Part shown: positions 18,813 to 51,980 of the stretch, piece by piece | Position numbering within the stretch: position 1 is the stretch's first letter | How the letters are laid out: every line of letters starts with the position of its first letter | Virus record (IMG/VR): IMGVR_UViG_3300021425_004462 | Location: 58,060 to 122,059 of that record | From: a virus | DNA length: 64,000 bases | Strand: one strand, 5' to 3' | Position numbers and translations under genes: made by a program | Notes under the pieces: model-generated | Databases searched by the model: none | Told to the model about the DNA's origin: nothing | The model's input: the letters and a program-made list of their open reading frames with translations, nothing else

Positions 18813-18816
18813 TACA

Positions 18817-19620: not shown

Positions 19621-19622
19621 TA

Positions 19623-22645: not shown

Positions 22646-22652
22646 ATAATAG

Positions 22653-22687: not shown

Positions 22688-22688
22688 C

Positions 22689-23249
22689 ATGAGTATTTCA
22701 CTTTATAAACCAAATAGCAAAAACACAGGGTGTGCTTTTAATTTTAAAATCGGAGTAAATAAGTCTAAAGAACCTGTAATTTACGCAAGCGCTATCCAGC
22801 AGTATAGCTGGGACGATTCAAAGAAAACCGGAAACTTTTCAGGAAACGGGACTGATCCAGATAAAAAAATAAACTTAAAATTCACAGAGTTTGAAATAGG
22901 TGGAATAATTAGCGCTTTTAAAAACAGAAATGAATTCTCTACATTTCACGCGTTCGAAGAGAATAAGACGTCAATCAAATGCACCCCATGGGATAAAAAA
23001 AGTAAAGTAAAACAAGGAGATAAAGAAACCTGGGTGACTATACCTGCATTCGGAATTAATGTTACGCGAAACGGTAATCAAATTTTCAGAATACCCATTG
23101 AACCTGGAGAAGTTGAAAATTTAATGGAATTTTTAAAATTTTATCTATCAGAACTATATAAACATAGAAGAAAAGAAGAGATTAAAAGACTCAAAGAATC
23201 CCAATCACAAAACACTTCATCAGGTAATAGCGGCGCAGCCCCTTTTTAA
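22689..23249 (+). CDS. Hypothetical protein, possibly a Whirly/PC4-fold ssDNA-binding protein
   Basis: SLYKP..., WD..KK, K(F)TEFEIGGII pattern; ends in ...AAPF. Confidence 0.4.
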   Translation: MSISLYKPNSKNTGCAFNFKIGVNKSKEPVIYASAIQQYSWDDSKKTGNFSGNGTDPDKKINLKFTEFEIGGIISAFKNRNEFSTFHAFEENKTSIKCTPWDKKSKVKQGDKETWVTIPAFGINVTRNGNQIFRIPIEPGEVENLMEFLKFYLSELYKHRRKEEIKRLKESQSQNTSSGNSGAAPF

Positions 23250-26298: not shown

Positions 26299-26299
26299 T

Positions 26300-33100: not shown

Positions 33101-34354
33101 AGTTCCGCCTTCCTCTAAGCCATTTTCTGTTAAATTTAAATATTCTTGAATACCATATTCATCAACGGCGGCAAAAGAATAATAATAATCAAACCCAAAT
33201 TTTTGTTGATTTGAAAAATCTTCCTTACTTCCAGCTTTACCGAACGAACCAAAAATTGGAGGTTTTCCAAGATCTTGCCAGTATTCGGTTGAGGGAGGAG
33301 AAGTATTGCTTGGGTCATTTTGGTGATTTTTCTTAGCTTCATATACCTTACCATCTTCAAATAAAACTTTATCTCCAATATCATATTGAGTTGTAGATAA
33401 TTGAGAATATTCTTCTGCATCTCTAATCGAAGTATAATAATTGACATTATCAACAATGCTATTTGAGCTATAAATTTCATAGTCCTGCTGAATATAAAAA
33501 CCTTGACAATTTAAATTTAAAAAGTCAGTATCTGCACAAATATATGACGCATTGAATTTCCCACCCTCCATATTATATAGAAAATTATCTATATTAGATG
33601 GGTAATTTATTCCAGTCATAACCCCAGTACAAGTTCTATTAAACTTATCGTGAGCAACAATCTCAAGGGTTAAATTTCGATCTATATCTAATTCATTAAA
33701 AAAGTTTTCATTTAAATTTATAGAAAAATCCCTATAGTTATTTAATGAACCTAAAACATCTTGAGACAAAAGGATATCTCGCAACGCTTCTGATTCGCTC
33801 AATATAGAGTTATCAATTGCCTCGGGATTCTCACCGGTTTTAAAGGATAGTGAAAACTTATTAAAAAAAGTGTCGCCGAGCAATTCGCTTGAAAGAACCT
33901 GACCCTCTTTTGCATGTCCGTATGGAGCTATCAAACTCCAAGATATATCTGCGGATCTTCCTACGTATTCTGATTTTATGTAAAGAGAATCTCCCTGTGT
34001 TAAAGGTTCTTTAATAATCTCTTTTCCAATAGATGCATCATTAGGAAGATTATCTATATTAATATCTGAAAATGTAAAAGTATTTTCCAAAAAATTAGGA
34101 AAAATTTCAATTCTATCTTGAATAAATTCAGAACGAATACCTATATCACTTACAGCAAAAATTCTAACATCAAAAATTCCATAATTACCCTGAAGGGGAA
34201 CTGATTTGAAAACACTATCCCCTTCACTTTCAACCAAAGATGAGCCCCTTCCTAATTCGTATCTAAATGAGTAATTATCAGAAGTGCCAACAACTTCATA
34301 ACTTGCGTTAAGGTCGTTAACCGTAAATTCTACACCTATAGCTGTTCTAGACAT
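27125..34354 (-). CDS. Central tail fibre, distal part (FN3-like, DUF1983-like and repeat modules; C-terminal peptidase S74 chaperone)
   Basis: YFWVRPVDFAGNKG (FN3-like); NASIGSAHIQNAAITNAKI; SSDKRLKDNI...W...G.IAQ (S74). Confidence 0.85.
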   Translation of the reverse strand: MSRTAIGVEFTVNDLNASYEVVGTSDNYSFRYELGRGSSLVESEGDSVFKSVPLQGNYGIFDVRIFAVSDIGIRSEFIQDRIEIFPNFLENTFTFSDINIDNLPNDASIGKEIIKEPLTQGDSLYIKSEYVGRSADISWSLIAPYGHAKEGQVLSSELLGDTFFNKFSLSFKTGENPEAIDNSILSESEALRDILLSQDVLGSLNNYRDFSINLNENFFNELDIDRNLTLEIVAHDKFNRTCTGVMTGINYPSNIDNFLYNMEGGKFNASYICADTDFLNLNCQGFYIQQDYEIYSSNSIVDNVNYYTSIRDAEEYSQLSTTQYDIGDKVLFEDGKVYEAKKNHQNDPSNTSPPSTEYWQDLGKPPIFGSFGKAGSKEDFSNQQKFGFDYYYSFAAVDEYGIQEYLNLTENGLEEGGTLKKVATSIKLDNIRFDEREDDLIFNWDVVDGVGNLVDLNQYKFLFKQDVVPGIVGISGSLFDPHTNEFLTGITEGNDTLSSNVDDLGNRPLVGNIHNAKVFYNFEYTRELNNQIHGDKYLPESGKRSVGLELGIINNLGEVIQKERIIGDNPPPVIKTQGFTADSKDQVTKVKFNFNYANGRGEKTSEVVLYRSDKENFSILDSNKKPIRGEAPFVKSVLGAGDLSFGDNINQIIDDNPEVGEEITGYYYKILPFDDFGSGQLFECTNNQGNLEKVWVLPKNYYSRNPNSYPGPALNITTDEIPGPVEGLEGNTSFENYFLNWSQPGSQIKDNGLINSKPNDIDYYEVWQSTGLSDKFLEFSDGKFLSQHQNSTGYRRIEGVQYTIGEIPKEFNDFAGDIVNATNIFNIDASAPSVQASQKGLANDRRYFWVRPVDFAGNKGPFTGSSNSSSDNLEGLELTLGQVKTTDISDFEQNITTAFPNTLSLVPNNPFKGNTSEGSVEWVRHFVYYQGTGYVIEAGKTEDPFIYWSATGRIPTHDKNIVQLTSQQKEELGLVGEGGGNELLTSEISNPLRNIVYSGGYDTSSYHPAGEGTSIGVDEAKINLLGETDDFIIARNAGGIPSPMWHSFSNASIGSAHIQNAAITNAKIHNLTADKLRSEVIYGQDLQIGGNNLSGQIRSAGFGGLDSKDSNGAPQQGFAVSGDGTFVFQTPDGKLFFDGDSLTLFGKLKQFDGAEYTFLDMSAEPKSFMYVEQSDGTYLPARQEDKCVFTATYQNSTMGPHDVLFRLSSPDGYEFFSYDQFKNSRNGDLYEISGFKYDASLFSDGSDGALRARLAKAELSVTGFEKMIRFNDESSSSILPQYSSVIINVSGAKTSMERSLAVDFVADGASAVYVDLDVENQIYNYDFDGFFDEDKNESNDLKLSAGAFNTFGNVRFDFYTGKSLKPSDLVLLENNENNWSINGALGTASLIDKYGDHIPRMSMTPFTCKVSAIHENVDLGNGPTDLFLASDFVTVYGSQPGNDSYTVLLENENHTYVADEYGQVTTSLLAEGKTAIIFRRGHKYYNFDSSSPYESDSYSVGTIAHNLKDFTLGTNYRINTITRTIDGAQVKLAELEILNLPERLIDSNDNIVSEAVLDLPIFDNKYVDNSANDEFPPVRFDKKYTFTKSREGKKSRGIELSVTDQTIQYDTVGNVRAPTSIDVEVEGFNFHNNNPEFIFYKYSNTNNEWQILHPPLGTKPVPNDIDNPPASYKTKDKKITLAIGSGSGKIAGTYESNDLPIKIKCRSWDGSNNESSSDFEFVAEDRTTIFGLKEGSNALTVVMSQEFSNVPVTLGANNQENLNFDNTLNTISVFEGVTSFSYQNVKANLAPEQFHVETTLSGVTLDSNTTKPSFKVASWTSSSNIAHIDYQITVKDQDGQSKTFTKRQSLSKNKEGSPARAVDLTASPVQAVSYNEDDLTKITSGDITISAAPRNDLGGNKFYKYSKSGLGTLKRIGGGSYTEGSYIEDLDEIVYVPPADIKGTSESLLATITCNFSETGSANSELASDQISIFALRAGSNATTIILSNEHHGLTYDLENDPSPTGSGTNIQVFLGSVALTPRKYGSAAGEVTSGSQLSDGEFFVQASPSSNITAGSQSISSKTLIFADASGFKSTDNGAFINYNITVKDFKGQVSASPITKKQTFSVTFKGDRGERGSGPSYRGEWNDATNYKGAVGDNLNVDIVRYGGSDYIALRDNVNKRPDQNTSDWRSLGAQFSSVATKLLITESSVVKDILTIGDQDDYDNNGTAYIRTHNENFFMAGILNGDNKFALGQSASDLITINHATISNAKNITSAEATITDLTSTSITSPTINGTTINASSSLNGGDITGTSLTVTGDVVAFYGSSSDKRLKDNIIEIKNPLSKILSIKGVEFEWNNKSKIYSGKDYGLIAQDVKKIAPHLVKQREDGYLGLKYDGIIPFLVGAIKEQQKTIESLEERISKLENNF

Positions 34355-37300
34355 TATATACTTAAATCTGAAAGGATTAAACTTGTTGGGGCTTCAGGCA
34401 AAGTCATATTAGCCTGAGGCGGAATTGGCATTAAAGGAACTCTAACAGACGAGTCCTTGTCGACAAAATTAAATTTAGAAGAGTTATACTCAATACCTTG
34501 AACTTCATATTGATTGTTATCTAATTCTTTTACACTTAATGTCCTAAATAATTGAGATTCAAAAGCCCTAGAAGCTTTAGTGCTTACATCTTCAACAAAA
34601 TAAATTTCTCCTTTATCGGATATTGTTGCGCCTTGAAATTGCTCATAAGCAGAAGTAGAATCAATTAATTCTATAGTATTAACATCAATATATATTGTAT
34701 TCCATTCTTTATTTATAATATTATTTAAGCCCTGATTAGAAGAATTGAAATTTTTAATTTTTATTTTTCTATTTTTAAATAAATCAACTCCATGATTTTC
34801 ATTTAATTTTATTATAAGAGCGTTAACGTTTTGCCTAGAGCTGTCTTCTGAAGAGCTTTCTATACTCAATATCTCAGATTCATTATAAGCAGGATTCGAA
34901 GATTCTTCTAAATAATTACTAACTTCTGAAGGAACCGATGTTGGGATTTGATTAGAGTTGGAAGATTCTCTAAGTTTCAAACCTAAAAATTGACTAGACA
35001 CATGAATAACATCAAAATTTCTATCTCCTAATAAATATGTATCACCTACAGAGTACCCAGATATGTTATTATAAACATATATTCTTATTGGGTCAGGGTT
35101 GCTACCTTCATACACAACCGCAGCCCACGAACCTCCAGATATTGCATCGAGGTAAAACCATGCAATTTTATTCTCTCCAAAAGAATGCGTTTTTGCTATT
35201 TCTGAATTACTCCACACCCAACCTATTTCTGTCCAAAAAAACCAAAACCCATCATTCCCAGAATTATCTTTATTAACCATATTTCCTAAGTACAACCAAC
35301 CAAAACTCACAGACCAAAACCAATCACTACCCTCAGGATTATATATTTGTCCAAATAAGCTTGAATTATAAAATTTGTCAGGCTCAGGGTTACCTGATTG
35401 ATTAACAAAAACTCTATTCAAAACCCCGCTATAGGTAGAAGGTTGCCCTCTGGAGCCGCTAGATCCGAAAAGGCCTCTTAAAGAGAATGATGCACCTATT
35501 TCTAGCTTTTTGAACGCTTTTAAGGTTGCTTGGGAAATAGAACTACCTATATCTTCTACAGAAACAAAATGCTCGCCACCCTCATTAAGGAAGTAATCTT
35601 TTCCTTCGTCAATTATATTAACCTCCTTACCATTGGAGGTTTCTGATACCTTAAACGTATTCGATGTAGAGTTTATTACAAAATAAGAACTAACCCCCTT
35701 CTTTTCTTTATCTAAGCCAGACGGCAAAACCCCAAGAGAAGAAAATCTAACTCTATCACCATCCTGAAGACCGTGTTTATATATATTTATTGTATTAGTT
35801 GCAGTGTCTACAAAAAATTGAAATTTTATCCTTAAATCCGAAATAAGAGTTTTTTGCCCTTGAGGCCCTTTGTTTTTAAGATTTTCATCAACAATTATAG
35901 ACCCATCGAATCTTAAAGCTTGAGGGGCGCCAATAGAATCTATATCTATATCTTGATCCTCTTTAGATATTTCATTAATAGCTCTTGCAGAAATAGATTC
36001 ATAAGTTTCTCTATCAAGCCCAGTATTTATTAAAATTTCTACACGCCTGATATTAGGCACATTCCTTAAACTCTTATCTATTAAAATACTTAACCTATCT
36101 TTTTCTTTTGTATCTCCATTTTCATCAATATATTCACTTTTTGTTAACAAATCAAGTATTCTTCCACTCATAGACTCTCCACTTCTATTTTCGTCAGACA
36201 CCTCGAAAACCGAACCTGGATAAAGAAATGCTCCTTCCGTACCAGTAACAAATTGAATTTTTTCTGATTCTAAATTAGAAGAAGCAAGAACCCATTTAGC
36301 TAATCTCCTGGCCATACTTTTAGAAGTTATCCCTAACCCCATAGTTTCTTTTTCTATATAACCATATATTTGCATAGCGGCCGGATCTTCTTCGTAAACA
36401 ACATCAGGCTTATAGTTCTTTTCTCTATTATTAAATCTTACAAGACTCGCGGTAATTTTTTTATTCCTTGCGAATCCAGAATATGAAAACCCTTCTTTTT
36501 TTCTTACATTAGAATTGTTAAATAGAATAATTGGATTTTTTTTCGAATCTTGCACTACTGATATTTTACCCGCGGTGTATATAACCATACCCCTGAATAA
36601 TGAAGCTAGAGAATTAAGAGAGTTAACTGCTTCAGACTGTTCAGTTAAATATAGATTGCAAGCAAATCTTGGTTCAACAGTAGAATGGTTAATCTGAGTA
36701 GCGCAAGCTCCGATTGTCTTTCTAATATTGCCATCAGCATAAGATGATGGCACATCATTAAAAGCTGGCCCAGATAATGTTAAAACCATTTTACTACCAT
36801 TTAACACTTCAGACCTTATCAAAAATCTTTCCTCAATATTGTACTCCCCGCTCCTAATTGAAGAATTTTTAGATAAATTTTTCCTTACAGCTATGGCTTT
36901 CGATGAAGTCCCTGAGATTTGATCATCAGAATAATTATGTTGATGAATGAAAAAAGCAACTTTCTTACCTTGGAACTGTTGATTTTTTCCAAAATCTTTT
37001 AAAAAATCCTCAACCCCATATGCAACTTCTTGTATATTTCCAGAAACATTTACGTATTGAATAGAGTCAATAGTTATAGTAAAACTTCCGGCAGAAGTTC
37101 CTGAATTATAGTCTATATCATTATTTGTAGTAAAAGCCAAAGGGAATCCCGTTTTAGTTTCTATTGGATAATTAGTCTCAACAAGTTCATCGCAATATTT
37201 TGATATCTTATAGAGCTGCCACTTATCAACCATTAAATCACTTACGCCGTATCTACCAAGCCCATACCTATAATTAGTTAACAAATCAAAAAAGACCCAA

Positions 37301-39096
37301 GCAGGATTATTACTCCAATATTTTTTTTCATCAGATATAGAAAAAATGGATTGATTTTCATCTGATTGCCCTTTAAATAAACCGTCCCAAGGCCCATCGT
37401 ATCGCCTAGACTCAGGGTCATAGTTAGAAGGAATTAATACTTTTTTAAGTTTTGCGTGATAAGACCTTAAAGGTATATTTTGGAAATTTTTACTATCAAA
37501 ACGAATTTTTACGGCGGCAGTATTTGGGTAAATTAGTTTTTCATTTATCATTTCTTGAACATAAGCAATTCTTAGCATTTTATTCCTCATAACTCCACCA
37601 ACATTTCCAATATATGTACTATTTGATCCTAACGGATTATCGTAAGCTACATTGTTAGCTTGATCTTTTGTCAGATCAAGTTCTGCATTTAATTTTACTA
37701 CAGAAAAACTTAATTGCTCAGAGTTATTAAAAAATAATACCTTTGGATCATATTTTATAGAAATACTAAAGTTGTAAGAGCTTGACGCTAACCCCTGCAC
37801 AAAGAAGAACTGATTAGAGCCTGACTCTATAATTTGTATACCTCTAGTAATTTTTGATGAATTTACCTCTGTTGCGCCTTCCGTCGCTTTTATGAAATCT
37901 ATATCGCTACGACTAATTCCACTATCAGGGTTTAAAATATTTATTCTCTTACCGTTTTTTGTTATGAATATAGCGAACCTCATGGAATCACTAAGCGAGT
38001 CTCCAGGGTCATCATTCATTTGCAGTAATTGCACAGAAAATTCAAAGACAATTTGATCTACATCGCTACTTGTTATTCCATGAGAAAAAATATACGCACC
38101 CCTATTAATAGCTTGATTAAAATCCTCATAAACAGAAATTCCAGTGCTACCAACATAAGGTCCCGGACCATGAAGCTTTGTATTATATTCTATTGTATAA
38201 CTACAAGTATCCGAAAGTGAGCCAACATCTGTCTCAGAACCATCCTTTAAAACAGGTCCGCCTTTTTTATTTTTTTGATCCTCATTTAAAACGTAATTAA
38301 AAGTTGCAGAGCTCCCTTCTGAAGTTGTATTTTTAATAGGGACATTATTTAAATAAATACCTTGACGAATATCTTCTTTAGGCAAAAGATTTCCTCTCTC
38401 ATCAACTAATCCAGCTATAGGACCTTCACATAGAGCATCTATATATTCCGTTTCAGAAAAAGACTCTAAAACTGTAGAGTTTGAAGTGGTATTCCTTCTT
38501 AAATCAAATGTTTCAACTTTAGCATTTATATTTACACAACCAACTCTCAAAAGACCGTAACCCAAGGGAACAGGAATCCCTTGAGCTTGTCGATTCCTAC
38601 TGCCAGACATTAACATTGATTTAGTGGAAACTTTTGTTCCTGGCTTAGGCGGCTTAGGTGGCTTAAATAAGGCTTGAACAACAAAAGATATAGCAACAGC
38701 AACAGCGACATAAGTTGCAACAGTTAACGCTCCAGCGAGAAAAGTCGAAGTTACACCCATCTTCACCCAAAATCCAAATACAGCGGTACTTGTTATAGCT
38801 CCCCCTTTAGGTACTGGAACTAAATGCAACTCATTAGATTCAATTTTATCAGCTATATTATTACTTAATTTAAGCAAATTTTCATCAAGATCATCTTCCC
38901 CACTAATATTTTCAGGTTTTTTAGTAAGTATAACATATTTATTTCCTTTAATATGCTCAGACGATGTATAACTATAAAAACCATCCGAATTAGCTTCTAT
39001 AGCAGCTAAAGCTTCTTGCACAGAATTAATATTCAACTCAAAACTCGAGCCAAACTTTTTACCTAATTTTCCATGCAGATAAACCTTTTTCATCAC
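34354..39096 (-). CDS. Lambda gpI-like domain fused to gpJ-like tail tip/host-specificity protein
   Basis: KKVYLHGKLGKKFG and QGIPVPLGYG (I-like); LCEGPI.GLVD, YPNTA, PSNYDP, WDG.FK, NNPAW, KYCDELV, EPRF.CN (J-like). Start is GTG 39096 or ATG 39093. Confidence 0.9.
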   Translation of the reverse strand: MMKKVYLHGKLGKKFGSSFELNINSVQEALAAIEANSDGFYSYTSSEHIKGNKYVILTKKPENISGEDDLDENLLKLSNNIADKIESNELHLVPVPKGGAITSTAVFGFWVKMGVTSTFLAGALTVATYVAVAVAISFVVQALFKPPKPPKPGTKVSTKSMLMSGSRNRQAQGIPVPLGYGLLRVGCVNINAKVETFDLRRNTTSNSTVLESFSETEYIDALCEGPIAGLVDERGNLLPKEDIRQGIYLNNVPIKNTTSEGSSATFNYVLNEDQKNKKGGPVLKDGSETDVGSLSDTCSYTIEYNTKLHGPGPYVGSTGISVYEDFNQAINRGAYIFSHGITSSDVDQIVFEFSVQLLQMNDDPGDSLSDSMRFAIFITKNGKRINILNPDSGISRSDIDFIKATEGATEVNSSKITRGIQIIESGSNQFFFVQGLASSSYNFSISIKYDPKVLFFNNSEQLSFSVVKLNAELDLTKDQANNVAYDNPLGSNSTYIGNVGGVMRNKMLRIAYVQEMINEKLIYPNTAAVKIRFDSKNFQNIPLRSYHAKLKKVLIPSNYDPESRRYDGPWDGLFKGQSDENQSIFSISDEKKYWSNNPAWVFFDLLTNYRYGLGRYGVSDLMVDKWQLYKISKYCDELVETNYPIETKTGFPLAFTTNNDIDYNSGTSAGSFTITIDSIQYVNVSGNIQEVAYGVEDFLKDFGKNQQFQGKKVAFFIHQHNYSDDQISGTSSKAIAVRKNLSKNSSIRSGEYNIEERFLIRSEVLNGSKMVLTLSGPAFNDVPSSYADGNIRKTIGACATQINHSTVEPRFACNLYLTEQSEAVNSLNSLASLFRGMVIYTAGKISVVQDSKKNPIILFNNSNVRKKEGFSYSGFARNKKITASLVRFNNREKNYKPDVVYEEDPAAMQIYGYIEKETMGLGITSKSMARRLAKWVLASSNLESEKIQFVTGTEGAFLYPGSVFEVSDENRSGESMSGRILDLLTKSEYIDENGDTKEKDRLSILIDKSLRNVPNIRRVEILINTGLDRETYESISARAINEISKEDQDIDIDSIGAPQALRFDGSIIVDENLKNKGPQGQKTLISDLRIKFQFFVDTATNTINIYKHGLQDGDRVRFSSLGVLPSGLDKEKKGVSSYFVINSTSNTFKVSETSNGKEVNIIDEGKDYFLNEGGEHFVSVEDIGSSISQATLKAFKKLEIGASFSLRGLFGSSGSRGQPSTYSGVLNRVFVNQSGNPEPDKFYNSSLFGQIYNPEGSDWFWSVSFGWLYLGNMVNKDNSGNDGFWFFWTEIGWVWSNSEIAKTHSFGENKIAWFYLDAISGGSWAAVVYEGSNPDPIRIYVYNNISGYSVGDTYLLGDRNFDVIHVSSQFLGLKLRESSNSNQIPTSVPSEVSNYLEESSNPAYNESEILSIESSSEDSSRQNVNALIIKLNENHGVDLFKNRKIKIKNFNSSNQGLNNIINKEWNTIYIDVNTIELIDSTSAYEQFQGATISDKGEIYFVEDVSTKASRAFESQLFRTLSVKELDNNQYEVQGIEYNSSKFNFVDKDSSVRVPLMPIPPQANMTLPEAPTSLILSDLSI

Positions 39097-44434: not shown

Positions 44435-45561
44435 GATGCAGGATTATGGTAAGTATCATAACCTTTATAACTTAAAGATATAGACATTTCACCCTCTATA
44501 GATGAATTTATAGTCTCTCCGATTAATCTTACATTATTTCCGGTAAAAGAGTTGATGATAGTATCATTTCTTGAATCTCTTAACTCTATTTCTACAGTGC
44601 TTTTTGGAGCGGATTGAATTCTATCCTTAACCTCCCTAACTTCATATTCATCTGCAATCATAGTAAAATTTATATTAGTTTCAATTGGGTACTCCACATT
44701 AATTTGTATAGGCTCTAAGTTTTGATAACTTGCCTGGTTTGTCAAATTCCAATCTTCATTGTCTCCCTTTGGTAATGCATATATTGGATTTAAACTAATT
44801 GATCTACTATAACTGAAATCACTAATAGCGTCGATCTCGAAATCGCTCACTTTTAGTTTTATTTTTGATTGATCAGTGAATTGAACCTCAGGGTGTTCTT
44901 GGTGAATAATGTCCGATAATTTATATGAAACCCCTTGGAAAGCATTTTTACCCAAACCAAGAACGTCTCCATCTTCTACTATTATAGATTCATCATATAG
45001 ACTAGCGTATAAACCTTCAGATATGGAAATATCTTTTTGAATAAATTTTGGCTGTAAATTTACTGTGCCCGCATCAAGAACCCTTCCTAAAGAATTAGTA
45101 TAAAAAACATAATCTCCGTCAAACGAACTCATATGATCACTTTTTAATTCATAAGAATTTGTTTTCATTACATTTTTACCTAGTTCTCCATAAACAGTTA
45201 TATCTGTTTGTATTTCAGGTATTTGGCCAACAGAGCAAGATATAGAATAACTATTAATTCTCCCGTTCTTAAAACCGAAACCCTTACGATTATCATCGTA
45301 TAATATAACTCCACTCAAATTATTTTCATCAAAGGAATATTTCCCTAAAACATTAGTTTCAAGCAAAGGGTCAAAACCAACCATTTGTCTTGATATTGAA
45401 AAATTACCCTCTAAAGGTTTTTCGATTAATGCATCTATAAAACCAACTCCAGCAACCTTAATAGGTTTTTCGCTAATACCATAACTTCCATCAATATTAG
45501 TCACGCCAGATAGCGCATAGCCATTTACAACTATTGTTTGCTCATAATTAGAATAGCTCAT
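44431..45561 (-). CDS. Tail-tube-like minor tail protein
   Basis: NGRINSYSISCSVGQIP aligns with NGYISNYSVEASVGSMP of 56180-57472. Confidence 0.6.
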   Translation of the reverse strand: MSYSNYEQTIVVNGYALSGVTNIDGSYGISEKPIKVAGVGFIDALIEKPLEGNFSISRQMVGFDPLLETNVLGKYSFDENNLSGVILYDDNRKGFGFKNGRINSYSISCSVGQIPEIQTDITVYGELGKNVMKTNSYELKSDHMSSFDGDYVFYTNSLGRVLDAGTVNLQPKFIQKDISISEGLYASLYDESIIVEDGDVLGLGKNAFQGVSYKLSDIIHQEHPEVQFTDQSKIKLKVSDFEIDAISDFSYSRSISLNPIYALPKGDNEDWNLTNQASYQNLEPIQINVEYPIETNINFTMIADEYEVREVKDRIQSAPKSTVEIELRDSRNDTIINSFTGNNVRLIGETINSSIEGEMSISLSYKGYDTYHNPAS

Positions 45562-48500
45562 GATGGACGAGTATCTTCAAGTAATCCTCCTGGTCTTTGC
45601 TCTTCAACAATTACCCCTAAAACTTGTAGTTTTATTTTTTCTGTCAACTCTTTCATTCTATCTCTAGAATCCTTACTTTTATCATCTCCGTCTTGAGAAT
45701 TTTCTTGAGATTGTTTTCCAGATTTATCGATATTAAGAGTTATATTAAAATTATTAGTTGCCGAGGATGAATTAACTTTAGATACCCCAGGATCTTCGCT
45801 CCCGACCATGCCTCCGTCATAAAATTTACCTGCATTTATTTTGTCAAGCATAGGTTTACCAATTTGTCTTGCACTACTTGCCTTTATAACATATTCTCCT
45901 TCGCTAAGCATTGCTGGAATTTGGTCGATCCCAGATTTACCAGAAATATGTCCACCAGAGGCGTATTTATTAATTCGTCCTCCGTTATTAAAGACTCCCG
46001 GCGCAATGGGAACACTACCTTCCATACCAGCGCTAACACCTCCTGGAACAAATGTTGCCCCCGGATTAAATAAGCTGTTAACCCCCATACTTAAACCAAT
46101 AGATAAAGCAGTGCCAAGTAATTGATTCCTCAAAGCCTTCTTTTTCATTTTTTTTCTTATAGCCTCCTGCCTTTTCCTCTCTCGTTCTGCGCGCATAGCC
46201 GAAGCAGCATCAGTATCTTCCGCCAGAGCGACGCTTTGGGCTTCTCCGCTATAGAAAAAACCAGACATAGGCATACTTTGATAAGCTCTGCCAGAATCAA
46301 TCCATCGACTTGATCCTTTATTGGCGCGTAGTGCAGAGCCAGGTTCACCTCCTGCGTTTAAACCTTGAATCTCACCTCTTGCATTTAAATTATGCATAAA
46401 ACTTGAGCCGTACTTATTTACAGCTCTTCTATTCATAACATACTCCCCATTTGTTACCATTGCAGGAACGCCTCCACCTGCAGAGTATTTTCTCACGCTT
46501 CCTCCGTTAGACATAAGTCCCATGCTTCCTACAATTGTATTTGCCGCAGAAGTTAAAAATGCATTTTGAATAGCTTGAAGAAAGCCGATTGCAATATTAT
46601 TCAAAACATCACCTAAGTCTTCGCTTCTATTAATGGCCGCATCCATAGCCGAGACTAGTCCATCACGAAAATGAGTTGCGGTTATCGTTCCTAACTGGTA
46701 ATCCAATTTACTAGCGTCATCTAACATCTTATCAGATGCGTCAGTAAAACCGCCAGAAAAAGATGCTTCATGCTTAATTTGTTCTGCAGCTATTCTCTTC
46801 TCTAGAGAAAGCTGTTTTGTTTTTTGATCGATAATGGCATCATTTGTGGCTTTAATTTGCTCACTTCGATCGTGGCTTTTTCTAAGTTCTTCAGTTAATT
46901 TTCTTTGCGCCCCCTCTTTTGTTTCGCCTTTTTTTAATTCTATATCTCCAGATTCTAAACCTTTTTGCCTTTGGGTTAATTCCAATCGCTTTTCAGCCTC
47001 TTTACTTTCTTCTATTAGTTGATTTTTTCTTATTTCAGCTATTTCATAACTTAAATCTAGTTCTTTTTCCCTAAACTTTATGTTATGACGTTCTGATATC
47101 CTTTTGTAGCCTGGACCATCAGAAAGAGTGCGTTGCAATTTTGTGGTTTTTCTAACTTCATTACTGATTTTGTCCCCTAATGCCATCGTCCTAATATAAT
47201 CTTGGTGAGCTTCTTTTTGCTTCTTTATTGCATCAAGTCTACCGGCAACAAGATCATTTATCACTTTTTCCTTACCAGCCCTTTCTCCAGCTAACTCGTT
47301 CTCTTTCTTTGCAAGGTCAACGGAGTTTTCCTTTGCTAAAACCATAACTTCTATTTTCTTCTTAATAGCATCATCAACTTTTACTTGTTCATATAAAGTT
47401 TGGAGTTCTTCAGCACTCATCTCATTTAATCTTTCGGTAAGATTTACTGTTTTAGCAAGAAATTCTAACCTAGACTTATATTCTGTGCTTTGAGGATCTA
47501 CATCGCCATAATCCTTGTCCATTTCTGATTTTAATAAATTTTTCTTTAATTCATTTTGCAACGTGTCATCTTTCATTGATAAAAGCTGATTTCTCAAGTT
47601 GGCAGATGCAGAATCTTCTTTGAGAGCTAGTTGTTCAGAGGCTCTATTTAAAGCTTCTTGGTATTTAATTTCTGATTTTTGCCGTTCTGTCAAAAATTCA
47701 CCCCCAAGAGAAGTTAGAGCTTTTAAATCCATTGCTTGTTTATCATATTTATCTTTTATCTTTAACTGGCTCATCGCCGCCGCTTTTTGAGCTTTTAATT
47801 GAGCTTTTTGGAGATTAAGTTGAAGAATAATTCCTTCATTTTGTTTTGTATTCAAGTCTCTTTGCGCTTCTACCTGCTTAAGTATATCTGCATAAGCTTT
47901 TGCTATTTCTGCAGGGTTTCCTTCGTCGATTTGTTTTTTTAATTCTTCGGGGGAGAAATATTCGAGATCGCCCTTATCAAAGCTTCTCCCTCTTGCGGTT
48001 GAACCTTTTTTAAGGGCTGCAGTTTGAATTTTCATATCTGCAGGCAATTCATCTAATGCAGCCTTAATCGCTTCGGGTCTAGCGGCAGTACCCATTTGAG
48101 CTAAGATTTGATCTTCAATTCTTTTTCTTTGTTCTTCCGAACCTCTTCTTTCTCGTCTTTGCGTCGCACCTCCTCGATTCGAGACCATTTTTCCTGTATA
48201 AACTGCTTTATCAATTTGCTCTCTTGAAACATTTATTCCAGATTCTTTTAATAGATTTGAAATTGCAGATGGAGAACCTGCCCCTCTTCTAAGTATATCT
48301 TGCATATCTAAATTAAGACTGCCTAGCATTTGACTCCTAACATTTTCTCCCATTCTCATACCAAATCCACCACTTTTACTTGGGTCTATAGCGGAGAGCT
48401 TATTGAAATTATCCACATCTATCTTTCGCTTTTTTCCTCCAAAAGAAAATTCTACTAAACCACCTTTTCCAAAATTTGTTTTAGCTAAAGATGGTGCTAA

Positions 48501-51500
48501 CGATTGAGCTAAAGCAGCACCAGTTTGAATGCTTGCTTCTGTTCGTGCTTTCGCGAATTCCTGCTGAGCAACTGAAGCTTCTTTAGCGCTATTTGCCAAT
48601 CCATACAAAGCTCCGCCTACGGCACCTATTGCCGTACCAAGAGGTCCAAACATCATGCCCATTGCAGCGCCTGTACCTGCGCCCATCAAGGCCCCACCAG
48701 CAGCATAACTTCCCCCTTGCATTCTTTGAACTCTTTCTTGCTCGGTTTCTCCTTGTCTTCCTTCTTGTAAAAAGCCAGCAATCATTGGAGCTCCCATCAT
48801 TAAACCCATACCCCCAAACCCAGACAACCCTCTTCCAACCGCACTATTTGAAAAAGCTTGATTAGCGTTAATAGCTTTTTGTGTTAAACCTCCAGCTCTA
48901 GCAGCAATCCCCATTTTTTTAGTAGAATCTGCAGCCATTTTTGATGCATAAGCTTGATCTTGAAGATTTCTCGTTAATTGTTTTTCAACACCTTGCAATC
49001 TTTTAGTTACATCTTTTCCAGATTTCTTTAGTTGGTTAAGTTCTTTTTGTTCTTTAAGTAATTTTTTATTTTCAACATTTAATTCTTTTTGTAATTCGGC
49101 TGCTGACTTATATTCATCTCTTCCTGCACCAAAATCAGATAAAAAGCTTGAGGCGTAATTAGGCACATACCCGTTGGCTCCAAATACATCTTTTAATCCA
49201 TTTGGTTCGTCTCGAGTATTAGTTACTCCAAGACCAATTGGATTACCTTTATTCATTAGAGCGGGATGTGTTCCTACTCTGATTTGGGAAACGGGAACTC
49301 CTGCCTCTCGCTCTCTACCTATTGCATCAGATAATGGGTTTGCGAAATTAGGAATGTAACCTTGCGCAAACAAACCTCTTTTTTGCGTTCTTGGATCAAC
49401 TCCTGGTTTTTTGCCAAAAGCAAATGCTAGTGCAGGATCAGTACTTTTACCTCCAGAGCGAAAAAGCTTTTCTTTGAGTATTTTATCGGCCATGTTCTGA
49501 GCATTACTTGTAGAATCTTGAGCTTTGTAATCAGCCAGATTAGTTTTAGACCAGCTTCCTCCAAATAATAATTTTAGATCCTCTTTTTGCTCTTTAGTAG
49601 GATTCCTTAAATCAAAATCTCCACCTATACCCTGAGCAACACCTTCTATGCCACCAGATTGCCCCTTTACTTGTTTTATTTTTGTACTTATAGCAGCTTC
49701 AAATAATGCTCCCACAACAGAAGTTAGAGCTCCAGCTGCCCCACTAGAGCCATCATTTAATGAATCTTTTATAGATTTTAAGCTAGCCGTCCCCGTCCCA
49801 ATTCTAAAAGAGTCGGCAAGCATTTTACCTTGTCTAACCGCAGTTTTCTCAACAGATTCATAAAGCTGTTCGACTAAATTTTTTTTCTTATTTTCCGCTC
49901 TTGTGGAAGCATTTTGTAAGACGCCATATTTTTTAAATCTTACTTTTGGTAATTTAGCTTTAGGCACTCCATATATAGAGGTTGCTGGTTTCTCTAAAAC
50001 AGTTCTAGAACCAGTTTCGGGAGTTAGCATATGCGCGTAATTAATAGCGTTAAATATTTGTCCCTGAGGATTGACTCCTGCTCCGCCTCGATTAAAATTA
50101 GGAACAAACCCTTTAGCTGCGTATGGATCAAATCCATGTACAGCCCCAAATGCTTGTTGATAATTTTTGCCTGCCTTACTAGACAAAGGAGGCATTATTG
50201 CTGGTTGACTTAATCCCGAGAATGTTTTTACTTTTTCTGCGCTATTATAAATAATAGATCCCTCGCCAGGCATATCCATTGATCTAATACTTCCTGCAGC
50301 ATACCCACCGCGAGCAGCTTGTTCTCTTTCTGGATTTGCAAAATTTGGTATATGACCATAAGCCCTTCCCCTGCGAGGTGTTAGGTTTGCTCCGAAGCCT
50401 TTCGAGTATAATGTAGCTGCACTGCTTTTAGCGACAGAGTCGAGCATTTTTGCTTCAGCCACTTGAGCTCTTAAAAGTCCAAGAATAATTTTTTCTTTTT
50501 CTGTCCTAGAAATGTCCGTGCGCAACATTTCTTTGCTCAACTCAGAGCTTCTTCCAAACAGTCCTACAAGAGATGTTTGAATTGCTTTTTGTTTTTGAGC
50601 TTCGCTAGTTACTCCAATTAATGAAGTTAAACTTTCTTTAGCGAAACTTGCAGCTTTTAAAAATAACTTACCGAATACAGCTGTTATAATAACTAAGCCT
50701 GGACCACTAATTACGTTACCTAAACCTCTCAGGAATCCATTTGCAAATTTATTTCCAGTTCCTTCTCCGTCTCCTAAAATTCCAGATAAACCCTCTGCGC
50801 CGCTTTTGACTATATTTAAAACCTTTTCAATTCCTGGGGCAAGCATTATCTCCCCGATTTGAGCAGAAACTTGTTTAATTGCTAGCCCAGTTTCGGTCGC
50901 CATCGCGGCCATGGTATTTCTTAATTGTTCATTTTTTTCTATAGCTTCGTTTGTTGCTCCTGCAGAAATTTGAGTTGCGTTCGCGAGAATACCATTTTGT
51001 TTCGCGGCATCACCAAGAACAGCTTTCAAAACGTTGATTTGAAAAACTCCACCGACAGTCTGAGCTATTTGAGCTTTTTGAGCTTCAGATAATGAATCGA
51101 AAGTGTTTGCGAGATCAGTTAATATTTTTTTTGCTCCAAGCGTTTTACCTTCGACATCTCTAACAGCAATCCCTAAATTCTCAAGTTGATTTAAAGTATC
51201 AGTTCTTCCAATACGAGTAAAAATTGTTTTAAAGGAGTTACCAATAACTTTACCGCCTCGAGCTGTTTGTTGCTGAGCGGCAGTAACCAAGCCAATTAGC
51301 TCATCAATATCTACTCCAGCCCCTTTAGCTGCCGCACCAGTTCTAGCTATAGCGTCAGCGAAATCTTCTGCGCTAACCGCAAATTTAACATCAACAGCGG
51401 CGAACTTACTTACTAATTCAGTAGTATCTTTAATTTGATTACCATAAGTATTCATTGCAGCGGTTAAAGATTTAACTGCTTCAGCGGAATCCATACCTGT

Positions 51501-51980
51501 CAACCTAGTAAGAATAAGTGCGTCTTTTGTGCGCTTTAAGGATTCTTCTACGCTAAGGCCTTGACGAGCATATTCTGTCGCTGCATCGGCAGCCACTTTG
51601 AATGCAGCCCCAGTTTCTTTAGCTACTTTAAACAATCCATCACTAAATGCATCTAGCTTTTGAGTGCTCAGGCCCATCACGACATTGATATCTGCTAAAG
51701 ATTTCTCAACTTCAACCATATTACGAACCATTCCTTTAAATGCGTCCGCCATACCATTAATTATTGCCATGGAAGCTCCGAAAGCTATAATACGAGCATT
51801 TGCAGCTTCCATCGACTTGCTGAATTCATCAGCAGCCCGTTTCATGTTTCCTAGGGGTTGAGTTGCACCCTTATCATCAACCGTAATTTTAATGGGTTGA
51901 CGCCGAATTCTGTTTACAGCAGACTGAACCGCTGCCTCAAGAGGTTGTGTATTACCGTGTACATCAAGATTTATAGCCAT
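45558..51980 (-). CDS. Tail tape measure protein (TP901-type core) with internal motif-delimited domains
   Basis: Helical Ala-rich N-terminus (AATEYARQG, IGNSFKTIF.R); C-terminal IPAMLSEGEYV motif; position in the tail operon. Confidence 0.9.
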   Translation of the reverse strand: MAINLDVHGNTQPLEAAVQSAVNRIRRQPIKITVDDKGATQPLGNMKRAADEFSKSMEAANARIIAFGASMAIINGMADAFKGMVRNMVEVEKSLADINVVMGLSTQKLDAFSDGLFKVAKETGAAFKVAADAATEYARQGLSVEESLKRTKDALILTRLTGMDSAEAVKSLTAAMNTYGNQIKDTTELVSKFAAVDVKFAVSAEDFADAIARTGAAAKGAGVDIDELIGLVTAAQQQTARGGKVIGNSFKTIFTRIGRTDTLNQLENLGIAVRDVEGKTLGAKKILTDLANTFDSLSEAQKAQIAQTVGGVFQINVLKAVLGDAAKQNGILANATQISAGATNEAIEKNEQLRNTMAAMATETGLAIKQVSAQIGEIMLAPGIEKVLNIVKSGAEGLSGILGDGEGTGNKFANGFLRGLGNVISGPGLVIITAVFGKLFLKAASFAKESLTSLIGVTSEAQKQKAIQTSLVGLFGRSSELSKEMLRTDISRTEKEKIILGLLRAQVAEAKMLDSVAKSSAATLYSKGFGANLTPRRGRAYGHIPNFANPEREQAARGGYAAGSIRSMDMPGEGSIIYNSAEKVKTFSGLSQPAIMPPLSSKAGKNYQQAFGAVHGFDPYAAKGFVPNFNRGGAGVNPQGQIFNAINYAHMLTPETGSRTVLEKPATSIYGVPKAKLPKVRFKKYGVLQNASTRAENKKKNLVEQLYESVEKTAVRQGKMLADSFRIGTGTASLKSIKDSLNDGSSGAAGALTSVVGALFEAAISTKIKQVKGQSGGIEGVAQGIGGDFDLRNPTKEQKEDLKLLFGGSWSKTNLADYKAQDSTSNAQNMADKILKEKLFRSGGKSTDPALAFAFGKKPGVDPRTQKRGLFAQGYIPNFANPLSDAIGREREAGVPVSQIRVGTHPALMNKGNPIGLGVTNTRDEPNGLKDVFGANGYVPNYASSFLSDFGAGRDEYKSAAELQKELNVENKKLLKEQKELNQLKKSGKDVTKRLQGVEKQLTRNLQDQAYASKMAADSTKKMGIAARAGGLTQKAINANQAFSNSAVGRGLSGFGGMGLMMGAPMIAGFLQEGRQGETEQERVQRMQGGSYAAGGALMGAGTGAAMGMMFGPLGTAIGAVGGALYGLANSAKEASVAQQEFAKARTEASIQTGAALAQSLAPSLAKTNFGKGGLVEFSFGGKKRKIDVDNFNKLSAIDPSKSGGFGMRMGENVRSQMLGSLNLDMQDILRRGAGSPSAISNLLKESGINVSREQIDKAVYTGKMVSNRGGATQRRERRGSEEQRKRIEDQILAQMGTAARPEAIKAALDELPADMKIQTAALKKGSTARGRSFDKGDLEYFSPEELKKQIDEGNPAEIAKAYADILKQVEAQRDLNTKQNEGIILQLNLQKAQLKAQKAAAMSQLKIKDKYDKQAMDLKALTSLGGEFLTERQKSEIKYQEALNRASEQLALKEDSASANLRNQLLSMKDDTLQNELKKNLLKSEMDKDYGDVDPQSTEYKSRLEFLAKTVNLTERLNEMSAEELQTLYEQVKVDDAIKKKIEVMVLAKENSVDLAKKENELAGERAGKEKVINDLVAGRLDAIKKQKEAHQDYIRTMALGDKISNEVRKTTKLQRTLSDGPGYKRISERHNIKFREKELDLSYEIAEIRKNQLIEESKEAEKRLELTQRQKGLESGDIELKKGETKEGAQRKLTEELRKSHDRSEQIKATNDAIIDQKTKQLSLEKRIAAEQIKHEASFSGGFTDASDKMLDDASKLDYQLGTITATHFRDGLVSAMDAAINRSEDLGDVLNNIAIGFLQAIQNAFLTSAANTIVGSMGLMSNGGSVRKYSAGGGVPAMVTNGEYVMNRRAVNKYGSSFMHNLNARGEIQGLNAGGEPGSALRANKGSSRWIDSGRAYQSMPMSGFFYSGEAQSVALAEDTDAASAMRAERERKRQEAIRKKMKKKALRNQLLGTALSIGLSMGVNSLFNPGATFVPGGVSAGMEGSVPIAPGVFNNGGRINKYASGGHISGKSGIDQIPAMLSEGEYVIKASSARQIGKPMLDKINAGKFYDGGMVGSEDPGVSKVNSSSATNNFNITLNIDKSGKQSQENSQDGDDKSKDSRDRMKELTEKIKLQVLGVIVEEQRPGGLLEDTRPS

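What the first reader, a model, noticed from the sequence alone, without database searches (positions are those of the whole stretch)
49155..50357. Tape measure protein as a possible effector-delivery polyprotein: GxxPNF motifs bracket cargo domains
Seen: four motifs, GHIPNF (50340-50357, aa 542), GFVPNF (50094-50111, aa 624), GYIPNF (49344-49361, aa 874) and GYVPNY (49155-49172, aa 937). Each is preceded by A-x, and together they split a non-helical, Gly/Pro-rich region into modules of about 82, 250 and 63 aa inside an otherwise helical ruler. Knowledge: tape measure proteins are often proteolytically processed and are ejected into the host. Inference: the motifs are cleavage or recombination boundaries for interchangeable injected cargo. 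I know of no description of such a system.
Basis: partly seen in the sequence, partly recalled or inferred. Interest (0 to 1): 0.8.

Follow-up and report, generated by a model that had tools for sequence, protein, structure and literature searches.

The report
Tape measure protein with swappable cassette
The tail "ruler" protein of this uncultured marine phage has a short peptide repeated four times that fences three inserted modules, and related phages replace the enzyme-like middle module wholesale exactly at that peptide, so the tail may carry an exchangeable protein into the host, though neither cutting nor delivery has been shown.

Summary
Four A-x-G-[HFY]-[IV]-P-N-[FY] motifs lie at aa 542, 624, 874 and 937 of a 2140-aa TP901-type tape measure protein (TMP; 45558-51980, minus strand). 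They occur nowhere else in the 122-kb phage genome.

The motifs are family-wide: all 120 best relatives carry 3-6 copies. They fence two nearly invariant small modules, A (82 aa) and F (63 aa). These flank a hypervariable module B (about 230-330 aa, at least 20 types).

DNA homology to relatives stops at the last codon of motif 2, resumes at the first codon of motif 3, and stops again after motif 4. TMPs that are otherwise 95-100% identical carry unalignable B cassettes. Contigs from three independent seawater studies join across B at the same edges. Twenty-five of the 120 relatives have a different layout, mostly extra fenced modules.

B keeps G, E, D, [E/D]xK and K in 213-219 of 220 copies, which looks enzyme-like. 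No HMM or fold search identifies it, so the nuclease reading is unproven.

Recombination and module boundaries are supported. Cleavage and injection as cargo remain untested. The scan has already found this motif-fenced TMP design on other DNA (43 notes, at least 34 genomes). I found no description in print.

The parts
45558..51980 (-). Tail tape measure protein gene, 2140 aa
   Evidence: ORF. PF10145 matches at 2.2e-29 and TIGR01760 at 8.5e-31. Fourteen PHROG tape-measure families match. Lambda-like tail-tip genes lie downstream.
50778..51755 (-). TP901-type TMP core region (aa 76-401)
   Evidence: TIGR01760 match. Median identity to the window is 76-89% over 119 relatives.
50340..50357 (-). 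Motif 1, GHIPNF (aa 542-547), start of module A
50094..50111 (-). Motif 2, GFVPNF (aa 624-629), end of module A; DNA homology to B-swapped relatives ends here
   Evidence: blastn HSPs end at gene nt 1887-1890, which is aa 629-630. Contig joints and loose ends lie at 50091-50094.
50094..50357 (-). Module A (aa 542-629), a near-invariant adaptor module
   Evidence: Median identity is 80%. A 33-sequence alignment has mean column identity of 83%. There is no Pfam or PDB match.
49362..50093 (-). Module B (aa 630-873), a hypervariable exchangeable cassette
   Evidence: Median identity is 29%, and only 60 of 119 relatives align over more than half of B. There are at least 20 types at 45% identity. 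The cassette is swapped in near-identical backbones. AF2 gives pLDDT 70 and pTM 0.60.
49482..49712 (-). Conserved core of B with invariant G757, E761, D790, [E/D]817, K819, K833
   Evidence: Counts over 220 B domains are 216, 217, 216, 218, 219 and 213.
49344..49361 (-). Motif 3, GYIPNF (aa 874-879), start of module F; DNA homology resumes here
   Evidence: HSPs resume at gene nt 2617-2620, which is aa 873-874. Joints and loose ends lie at 49349-49362.
49155..49361 (-). Module F (aa 874-942), a near-invariant adaptor module
   Evidence: Median identity is 85%. A 33-sequence alignment has mean column identity of 81%. There is no Pfam or PDB match.
49155..49172 (-). Motif 4, GYVPNY (aa 937-942), end of module F; homology to relatives ends here, including L019 which shares this B type
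   Evidence: HSPs end at gene nt 2828-2833, which is aa 942-944. Loose ends lie at 49153-49156 in X2 and X3.
48585..48836 (-). Gly/Ala/Met-rich hydrophobic stretch (aa 1049-1132) just after the modules; a candidate membrane segment
   Evidence: Sequence, coordinates, partly conserved in the family consensus. The membrane role is inferred from TMP literature (passages).

Best explanation
The stretch is a motif-fenced insertion site inside a TP901-type tape measure protein of an uncultured marine siphophage, whose host is probably in the Flavobacteriales.

Two constant modules, A and F, each begin and end with the peptide A-x-G-[HFY]-[IV]-P-N-[FY]-A. They bracket a slot that holds one exchangeable cassette (B) and, in some relatives, further cassettes. 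Because A and F stay about 80-90% identical at the DNA level across the family, they act as homology arms. Recombination between co-infecting relatives replaces the whole cassette while leaving the ruler intact (shown).

B is a folded module that keeps an invariant G..E / D / [E/D]xK / K constellation while the rest of its sequence diverges to about 20% identity. It is therefore most likely an enzyme, possibly a metal-dependent nuclease-like hydrolase (inferred).

TMPs are expelled from the tail into the host envelope ahead of the DNA. B is therefore probably carried into the cell as a ready-made protein (inferred from TMP biology, not shown here).

The motif lies in segments that are predicted disordered on their own. 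I read it as a conserved junction peptide: a hinge, a docking site or a processing site. Which of these it is remains open.
For: TMP identity.

Motifs are real and specific to this protein: 4 sites against 0.03 expected; 4 in the genome, all in the TMP.

Family-wide occurrence:
- 120 of 120 best relatives carry the motif. Copy numbers are 4 in 95, 5 in 22, 6 in 2 and 3 in 1.
- Ala is at -2 in 463 of 505 motif copies and at +6 in 406 of 505.

Module architecture: A-B-F in 95 of 120 relatives and other layouts in 25. Those are A-B-C-F in 12, A-B-D-F in 5, A-B-D-C-F in 2, A-B-E-F in 2, a long insert followed by A-B-E in 2, one lacking motif 2, and one with a duplicated motif.

Conservation contrast: median identity to the window is A 80%, F 85%, B 29% and ruler 28-33%.

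Codon-precise breakpoints: homology to L004, L005, L006 and L011 covers gene nt 1-1887/1890, then 2617/2620-2828/2833. At the genome scale an 85-87% block runs from about 7 kb upstream to aa 630. B is lost, F returns at 91-92%, and homology is lost again after aa 945.

Decoupling of B from the backbone:
- P0011 is 96-100% identical in the N-terminal part, A and F and 86-98% in the ruler and C-terminus, but 27% identical over 39% of B.
- 218 of 266 pairs with N-terminal identity of at least 95% have B under 40% identical or unalignable, and 20 of 266 have B at 90% or more.
- 32 pairs share B at 80% or more with N-terminal identity under 85%.

Natural populations: contigs joining 49352-49362 to 50091-50094, the two edges of B, occur in 3 of the 4 runs laid, from 3 studies. 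Loose ends lie at the same edges and at 49153-49156.

Enzyme-like invariants.

B folds: pLDDT is about 80 and 70 overall, with strands and terminal helices at 85-92.

Motifs sit in low-confidence linkers: all four lie in segments with pLDDT under 50.

Breadth: a B profile finds 139 clusters at 50% identity with E<=1e-3. Of the 122 new proteins among them, 97 carry the motif.

Precedents for TMP-borne enzymes and TMP processing: P23-45, T5 pb2, Sle1.
Against: No cleavage, ejection or enzyme activity has been measured.

B matches no Pfam family. It matches no PDB sequence profile.

B matches no solved or viral fold. Foldseek gives nothing at E<=0.001. VIA gives a best Z of 5.1-6.0, on helical hairpins only.

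Invariant charged residues could instead form a structural salt-bridge or binding site.

Three folded B domains of a trimeric TMP would not obviously fit a tail-tube lumen. This is my own reasoning; the trimer is taken from the T5 passages.

The breakpoints at the motifs may only mark where conservation begins and ends, not where crossovers occur.

The relatives were selected by similarity to aa 520-960, so the architecture counts are biased towards this layout.

The joints were called at 85% likeness. For most of them the sequence in between is not known, and three have a short side under 30 letters.
Confidence: 0.55

Rival explanations
1. Polyprotein reading. The motifs are cleavage sites. 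During tail assembly or after ejection the TMP is cut at each G-ar-[IV]-P-N-ar, releasing A, B and F as free proteins, with B acting as a free effector.
For: The motif is short and invariant at G, P and N. It lies in predicted flexible linkers at every module edge, as expected of processing sites. TMPs of T5 and lambda are proteolytically processed, and T5 pb2 is cut between its hydrophobic stretch and its enzyme domain (passages).
Against: There are no data on cleavage. The motif occurs in no other protein of the genome, so it is not a shared maturation-protease site, and no protease was identified near the gene. Cutting at all four sites would detach the conserved N-terminal 541 aa from the ruler, which is hard to reconcile with length measurement unless cutting follows assembly. 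Asn followed by an aromatic residue is not a spontaneously labile bond (general chemistry, recalled).
Confidence: 0.2
2. Structural or host-adaptation reading. The motif is a docking or hinge peptide, for the tail tube, an assembly chaperone, or a host periplasmic prolyl isomerase acting on the invariant [IV]-Pro bond. B is not an enzyme but a binding domain for a variable host envelope or membrane factor, or a decoy that varies to escape host sensors of TMPs.
For: A and F are conserved far above their surroundings, as expected of modules that contact a constant partner. Infection by HK97 needs a host inner-membrane protein and the periplasmic chaperone FkpA (passage). A bacterial Avs receptor senses a conserved TMP segment (passages), so selection on TMP surfaces is plausible. 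B has no recognisable catalytic fold.
Against: Six residues (G, E, D, E/D, K, K) are kept in 213-219 of 220 B domains while everything else drifts to about 21% column identity. That pattern is more typical of an active site than of a binding surface for varying targets. No partner has been identified.
Confidence: 0.2
3. Specific sub-claim: B is a PD-(D/E)xK (restriction-endonuclease-fold) nuclease that cuts host or competitor DNA on entry.
For: The residue order is a helix carrying E, then hydrophobic-D, then [E/D]-x-K, then K, with D and [E/D]xK each on a predicted strand.
Against: No PD-(D/E)xK HMM matches. Pfam scans of the window's B and of 18 B types give nothing consistent. Mrr_cat finds nothing in the genome even at E<=10, while it rings in 11 of 14 control genomes. 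The predicted topology puts a helix between the D strand and the [E/D]xK strand, whereas the canonical core has a hairpin there (recalled). No nuclease appears in any fold search.
Confidence: 0.25
4. The motifs are chance or low-complexity repeats with no significance.
For: None found.
Against: Four sites are observed against 0.03-0.07 expected. The motif is conserved in 120 of 120 relatives and in 97 of 122 more distant B-carrying proteins.
Confidence: 0.01

Closest known systems
Phage T5 tape measure protein pb2 (Linares et al. 2023, PMC10038345; passages read)
   Same: It is a TMP that carries an enzyme domain next to a hydrophobic stretch. It is expelled on receptor binding. It is proteolytically cut between the ruler and the enzyme domain, and it is trimeric.
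   Different: T5 has one C-terminal metallopeptidase and a single cut after R1127. It has no repeated fence peptide and no reported cassette exchange. Here the cassette is internal (aa 630-873), upstream of the hydrophobic stretch, and of unknown fold.
Thermus phage P23-45 gp96, a TMP fused to a virion RNA polymerase (PMC10770324; passages read)
   Same: A large folded enzyme forms part of a TMP and is proposed to enter or act at the cell with the incoming DNA. It sits in the N-terminal part of the TMP.
   Different: It is a single fixed enzyme with recognisable catalytic motifs. No G-x-x-P-N-F fences and no module swapping are described in the passages I read.
Sle1-type TMP-related effectors of actinobacterial contractile injection systems (PMC13277306; abstract and outline read)
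   Same: A TMP-like carrier has a functional domain that differs between relatives and can be exchanged experimentally ('reconfigurable platform').
   Different: It belongs to a contractile nanomachine, not a phage tail ruler. The variable domain is C-terminal, and no delimiting repeated peptide is mentioned in the abstract.
Polymorphic toxins (CdiA with its VENN motif, Rhs with PxxxxDPxGL); recalled, not read here
   Same: A short conserved peptide marks the border between a constant delivery part and a highly variable, horizontally exchanged enzyme domain. The conserved flank provides the recombination arm.
   Different: Those toxins have a C-terminal variable domain with an adjacent immunity gene. 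Here the cassette is internal and fenced on both sides, lies in a virion protein, and no immunity gene was looked for or seen.
Mycobacteriophage TMPs with embedded peptidoglycan-hydrolase motifs, and SPbeta YomI/CwlP (recalled; 'yomI: putative transglycosylase' appears under TMP matches)
   Same: TP901-type TMPs with small or large enzyme inserts.
   Different: Those inserts are recognisable muralytic families. No repeated fence motif and no cassette series have been reported for them.
Polyvalent proteins of phages and conjugative elements (Iyer et al. 2017). The lead came from earlier scan notes. The paper is not in the library as far as search 57 showed, and I did not read it.
   Same: Large multi-domain proteins with shuffled enzymatic modules that are thought to enter the recipient with the DNA.
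   Different: I could not check whether TMP hosts or a fence peptide are described there.

Membership tests
TP901-family tail tape measure protein | Match to the family core (PF10145 / TIGR01760) above the curated cut-off | tested here: met
   PF10145 scores 103.2 bits against a cut-off of 33.2. TIGR01760 scores 107.2 bits against 28.8.
TP901-family tail tape measure protein | Position in a siphovirus tail module, upstream of the distal tail and tip genes | tested here: met
   Downstream ORFs match Phage_min_tail (5.7e-23). They also match minor tail PHROGs, and tail assembly protein plus central fibre J and tail fibre PHROGs.
TP901-family tail tape measure protein | Sets tail length and is present in the virion | not testable with these tools
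   This is an uncultured phage contig with no virion data.
PD-(D/E)xK nuclease superfamily | Conserved E ... D ... (D/E)xK residue order | tested here: met
   E761 is kept in 217 of 220 B domains, D790 in 216, [E/D]817 in 218 and K819 in 219.
PD-(D/E)xK nuclease superfamily | Significant profile match to a known family of the superfamily | tested here: not met
   There is no consistent Pfam hit for the window's B or for 18 B types. Mrr_cat gives nothing at E<=10 in the genome, with the control positive in 11 of 14 genomes. A profile against PDB sequences gives 0 hits. No HHsearch against a full library was available.
PD-(D/E)xK nuclease superfamily | Alpha-beta-beta-beta-alpha-beta core fold, with D and (D/E)xK on neighbouring strands of one sheet | tested here: inconclusive
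   In the AF2 model D and [E/D]xK lie on strands separated by a helix. Fold searches list no nuclease, but a missing match does not exclude the fold. Model coordinates could not be inspected.
PD-(D/E)xK nuclease superfamily | Metal-dependent nuclease activity | not testable with these tools
   This needs an experiment.
Viral or phage polyprotein with defined cleavage sites | A recurrent short site at every module junction, in an accessible linker | tested here: met
   The motif sits at every junction. All four copies lie in segments with pLDDT under 50.
Viral or phage polyprotein with defined cleavage sites | Actual cleavage at the site, and a responsible protease or autocatalytic module | not testable with these tools
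   There are no proteomic data. The motif is absent from other proteins of the genome, and no protease was recognised among the neighbours scanned.
Polymorphic-toxin-like exchangeable cassette system | A conserved delimiter peptide with horizontal replacement of the domain beyond it | tested here: met
Polymorphic-toxin-like exchangeable cassette system | Toxic activity of the variable domain and a cognate immunity gene | not tested
   No toxicity data exist.

The most novel reading that the evidence does not exclude
The peptide A-x-G-ar-[IV]-P-N-ar-A is the universal junction and release signal of a plug-in cargo system in the tape measure proteins of many uncultured aquatic phages. Each fenced module would be freed at the peptide once the TMP is expelled. 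The tail would then inject, ahead of the DNA, a changeable set of ready-made enzymes. In this window that set is a single enzyme of a new, nuclease-like fold that is swapped among near-identical phages in an arms race with host defences. This would be a phage counterpart of polymorphic toxins.
Probability: 0.15. Interest if true: 0.85.

Novelty: new variant of a known kind. Interest (0 to 1): 0.62.

Why it matters
TMPs are usually treated as passive rulers and channel formers, with a few known cases of a single fused enzyme. Here one short peptide defines a slot in which a whole enzyme-like domain is replaced between phages whose TMPs are otherwise 95-100% identical. The same edges are seen in wild populations from several studies.

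If the cassette is delivered, this is a general and evolvable route by which siphophages bring pre-made proteins into the cell before any gene is expressed. It would bear on host takeover, on anti-defence, and on why defence systems sense TMPs.

The finding also gives a ready handle for experiments and engineering. The constant A and F arms mark where foreign modules are tolerated. The six invariant residues of B are direct mutagenesis targets for a domain family with no known fold or function, present in at least 139 sequence clusters.

Tried and rejected
1. Identifying B by sequence. Pfam on aa 530-960 and on B gave nothing. Pfam on 18 B types gave only scattered single hits. NCBIfam and PHROGs hit only the N-terminal TMP part and the C-terminal half, not A, B or F. 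PDB sequence searches with one sequence and with a profile gave nothing meaningful or nothing at all. The ESM Atlas gave only unnamed viral clusters at 0.84-0.86.

2. Identifying B by fold. Two AF2 models were made.
- Foldseek against PDB gave nothing at E<=0.001.
- Foldseek against BFVD gave nothing.
- VIA wide gave a best Z of 5.1 and 6.0, on helical hairpins only.
- The VIA second look gave a best Z of 3.8.
I therefore do not file B as a nuclease.

3. Mrr_cat HMM on the whole genome: no match at E<=10. I did not build other PD-(D/E)xK family alignments for hhalign.

4. Homology of A to F. hhalign aligns only the 16-column motif, so I dropped the idea that A and F are duplicates. Profiles of A and F against PDB gave only chance-level rows. 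A and F had no match in 50,697 cultured phage records at E<=1. The full TMP matches cultured phages only over aa 5-480.

5. Complex prediction with three copies of module F: verdict 'no answer', score 0.00, controls not folded. This is no evidence either way.

6. Pfam on extra modules C and D of relatives (locus references): nothing. Module E was not examined.

7. Depth in the laid contigs is much lower over B than over A and F in X2, X3 and X4. The tool states that contig depth and uncovered parts cannot be used, so I rely only on joints and loose ends.

8. Literature. No paper describing the fence peptide was found with these searches:
- 'tape measure protein' + 'nuclease domain'
- 'tape measure protein' + 'polymorphic toxin'
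- 'polyvalent proteins' + 'tape measure'
- 'tape measure' + 'PNF' anywhere, which returned mostly physiotherapy papers
- 'tape measure protein' + cargo + domains + ejected
Supplements of the P23-45, T5 and Avs papers may hold TMP processing or domain data that I could not see.

9. Host. Only 3 loci in 2 Flavobacteriales MAGs carry module A in the species-representative genomes, and one relative is named as coming from a Crocinitomicaceae MAG. This is a weak host hint from binning only.
Full report
**What is there**

The window is the second half of a 122,059-bp IMG/VR virus record, estimated 86% complete. The ORF 45558..51980 on the minus strand encodes a 2140-aa protein. Three lines of evidence identify it as a tape measure protein (TMP):
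- PF10145 matches aa 120-311 at 2.2e-29.
- TIGR01760 matches aa 76-401 at 8.5e-31.
- Fourteen PHROG tape-measure families match.

Downstream lie lambda-like tip genes. One carries a Phage_min_tail domain, several match minor tail PHROGs, and there are a fused tail-assembly/central-fibre J-like protein and a 2409-aa fibre. The genome is 34% G+C. Module A of the TMP is found in only 3 loci of 2 Flavobacteriales MAGs among species-representative genomes, which is a weak host hint.

**The observation**

They read GHIPNF, GFVPNF, GYIPNF and GYVPNY at aa 542, 624, 874 and 937, each preceded by A-x. They are the only occurrences in all six frames of the whole genome; shuffled genomes give a mean of 0.07.

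**The motif across relatives**

A search with aa 520-960 found 667 relatives at E<=0.001 among 8000 scored candidates, and the best 120 were kept. All 120 carry the motif: 4 copies in 95, 5 in 22, 6 in 2 and 3 in 1. Beyond the residues fixed by my search pattern, Ala is at -2 in 463 of 505 copies, Ala at +6 in 406, and Pro at +8 in 254.

Clustering the inter-motif segments gives a simple grammar. Module A (about 82 aa) comes first, then module B (228-334 aa), then optional modules C (about 92 aa), D (about 127 aa) or E (244 aa), and module F (about 63 aa) last. The window's layout A-B-F occurs in 95 of 120 relatives. The other 25 have extra or altered modules, and each added module brings one more motif. 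This set was selected by similarity to the query region, so the proportions are biased.

**Which parts vary**

Median identity to the window over 119 relatives is as follows:

| Region | Median identity |
|---|---|
| N-terminal part | 89% and 76% |
| Module A | 80% |
| Module B | 29% |
| Module F | 85% |
| Ruler | 28-33% |
| C-terminus | 46% |

Only 60 of the 119 relatives align over more than half of B. A and F are therefore islands of very high conservation (33-sequence alignments: 83% and 81% mean column identity). B is hypervariable, with at least 20 types at 45% identity among the 120 proteins.

**Exchange of B**

Several relatives are almost the same protein as the window except for B. 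P0011 is 96-100% identical in the N-terminal part, A and F and 86-98% in the ruler and C-terminus, but 27% identical over 39% of B. P0013, P0015 and P0016 give no BLAST alignment in B at all. P0002 shows the converse: it shares N, A, B and F at 98-100% but has a different ruler, at 24-57%.

Over all pairs of 108 full-length proteins, 266 pairs are at least 95% identical in the 500 residues before motif 1. Of these, 218 have B under 40% identical or unalignable and only 20 have B at 90% or more. In addition, 32 pairs share B at 80% or more with backbones under 85% identical.

At the DNA level, homology to loci L004, L005, L006 and L011 runs from gene nt 1 to nt 1887-1890. That end point is aa 629-630, the last codon of motif 2. 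Homology resumes at nt 2617-2620 (aa 873-874, the first codon of motif 3) and ends at nt 2828-2833 (aa 942-944, the end of motif 4).

With 10-kb flanks the same picture holds at genome scale:
- A collinear block of 85-87% identity runs from about 7 kb upstream to aa 630.
- B is lost.
- F returns at 91-92%.
- Most of the ruler is lost after aa 945.
- In L019, which shares the window's B type, the block runs uninterrupted to aa 945.

**Wild populations**

I laid Logan contigs of four seawater or marine runs from four studies on 48900-50600 at 85% likeness. Contigs join 49352-49362 to 50091-50094, the two edges of B, in X2, X4 and X6. The shorter side of these joints ranges from 23 to 126 letters. 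Five joints have 31 letters or more and three have fewer than 30.

For most joints the sequence in between is not known. In one joint, 1670 other letters replace 1112. Loose ends, where contigs run on unlike the window, sit at 49349-49358, 50091-50093 and 49153-49156 in X2, X3 and X4. These fit replacement of the cassette rather than deletion. The tool's own caveats on metagenome joints at this likeness apply.

**What B is**

B is a folded unit. In the 431-residue model it has pLDDT of about 80. Modelled alone it has mean pLDDT 70 and pTM 0.60. The fold is a four-stranded sheet, a long helical hairpin, then strand-helix-strand-helix.

In an alignment of 18 types with only 21% mean column identity, G757, E761, D790, K819 and K833 are invariant, and position 817 is always E or D. 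Over 220 B domains the counts are 216, 217, 216, 219, 213 and 218 respectively.

This is the residue order of PD-(D/E)xK nucleases, and the same idea occurred to first readers elsewhere in the scan. Every formal test failed to confirm it. The negative results are listed in full under Tried and rejected. In summary:
- HMM and sequence-profile searches found nothing.
- The Foldseek and VIA fold searches found no related fold.
- The predicted helix between the D strand and the [E/D]xK strand is not the canonical hairpin, as far as I recall that fold.

I therefore call B enzyme-like and of unknown fold, and give the nuclease reading about 25%.

A profile of B finds 139 clusters at 50% identity with E<=1e-3, of which 69 are at 1e-10 or better. 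Nearly all are long TMP-like proteins with B near aa 620-900. Of the 122 new proteins, 97 carry the motif. Of the 25 that do not, 17 are shorter than 600 aa.

**What A, F and the motif are**

A and F match nothing in Pfam, PDB sequences or cultured phages. They are related to each other only through the extended motif A-x-G-x-I-P-N-F-A-x-P. All four motifs lie in segments that AlphaFold2 leaves at pLDDT under 50. They therefore behave like linker peptides that need a partner or a context.

**Mechanism**

Shown: the motifs are module edges, the cassette between A and F is exchanged horizontally, and A and F provide long conserved DNA arms on both sides.

Inferred:
- B is an enzyme.
- B enters the cell with the TMP. 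TMPs are expelled into the envelope ahead of the DNA (passages).
- Its variability reflects conflict with the host. A bacterial receptor that senses a TMP segment is known.

Open: whether the peptide is cut. T5 pb2 is cut between its hydrophobic stretch and its enzyme domain, so processing is plausible. However, the motif is in no other protein of this phage, and no protease was recognised nearby.

**Comparison and novelty**

TMPs with one fused enzyme are known: the T5 pb2 peptidase and the P23-45 virion RNA polymerase. A TMP-like effector with an exchangeable domain was described for a contractile injection system in 2026 (abstract). A repeated fence peptide with codon-precise cassette replacement inside a phage ruler was not found in five literature searches. 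I class it as a new variant of a known kind.

**Earlier scan notes**

The scan itself has reported the same design on other DNA: 43 notes in at least 34 genomes. Follow-ups on close relatives reached the same two conclusions, that the swap is confirmed and the nuclease is not shown. I reproduced both here independently on this window.

New here, relative to the short note summaries I could see, are three items: the pairwise decoupling counts, the genome-scale block structure, and the joints in wild contigs. I could not see the full earlier reports, so some of this may overlap with them.

Noticed in passing
window 46374-46511 and 45822-45989 (-), TMP aa 1824-1869 and 1998-2053: Two copies of a C-terminal repeat of the form GG..(K/R)YS/A.GG ... 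(V/I)PAM(V/L).xGEYV(M/I) ... N(A)(R/G)G. Many of its columns are at least 90% conserved in the 80-sequence family alignment. It is probably the tip-proximal conserved end of the TMP.
   Followed up: partly
window 48585-48836 (-), TMP aa 1049-1132: A Gly/Ala/Met-rich hydrophobic stretch directly downstream of module F, conserved in the family consensus. It resembles the glycine-zipper or membrane segments discussed for TMPs, but no membrane prediction was run.
   Followed up: no
window about 49150 (TMP aa 945) and the flanking 10 kb: The end of motif 4 is also a genome-scale mosaic boundary. The roughly 7 kb upstream plus TMP aa 1-945 are 85-87% identical to relatives, while the ruler and distal tail genes downstream are only patchily 65-75% identical.
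   Followed up: partly
window 34354-39096 (-): A 1580-aa ORF combines a tail assembly protein I-like N-terminus (phrog_32, aa 1-199) with a central tail fibre J-like body (phrog_31, 9.7e-115). This looks like an I-J fusion.
   Followed up: no
window 5161-8124 (-): A 987-aa protein whose C-terminal 260 aa match a PHROG annotated 'tail sheath' (phrog_15433, 1e-36). That is odd for a phage with a lambda-like non-contractile tail module, and may be a mislabelled family.
   Followed up: no
window 1067-2971 (-), 19623-21044 (+), 23249-25153 (+): Two glycosyltransferase-like proteins and a HAD-hydrolase-like protein. The latter two lie in a plus-strand gene block at 14220-27121. This may be a glycan or nucleotide-sugar module of the phage.
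   Followed up: no
relatives P0027 and P0033 (3432 and 3427 aa), about aa 640-1130: A roughly 500-aa run of degenerate tandem repeats (GSKNQ..PQERQ-like, rich in Ser, Lys, Gln and Glu) follows a first A-like segment, ahead of a second copy of module A.
   Followed up: no
relatives, e.g. L007:2396-2692 (module C), L008:4192-4590 (module D), P0067 aa 936-1185 (module E): Three further fenced module families are inserted between B and F in 23 of 120 relatives, all without Pfam matches where tested. Module E was not examined.
   Followed up: partly
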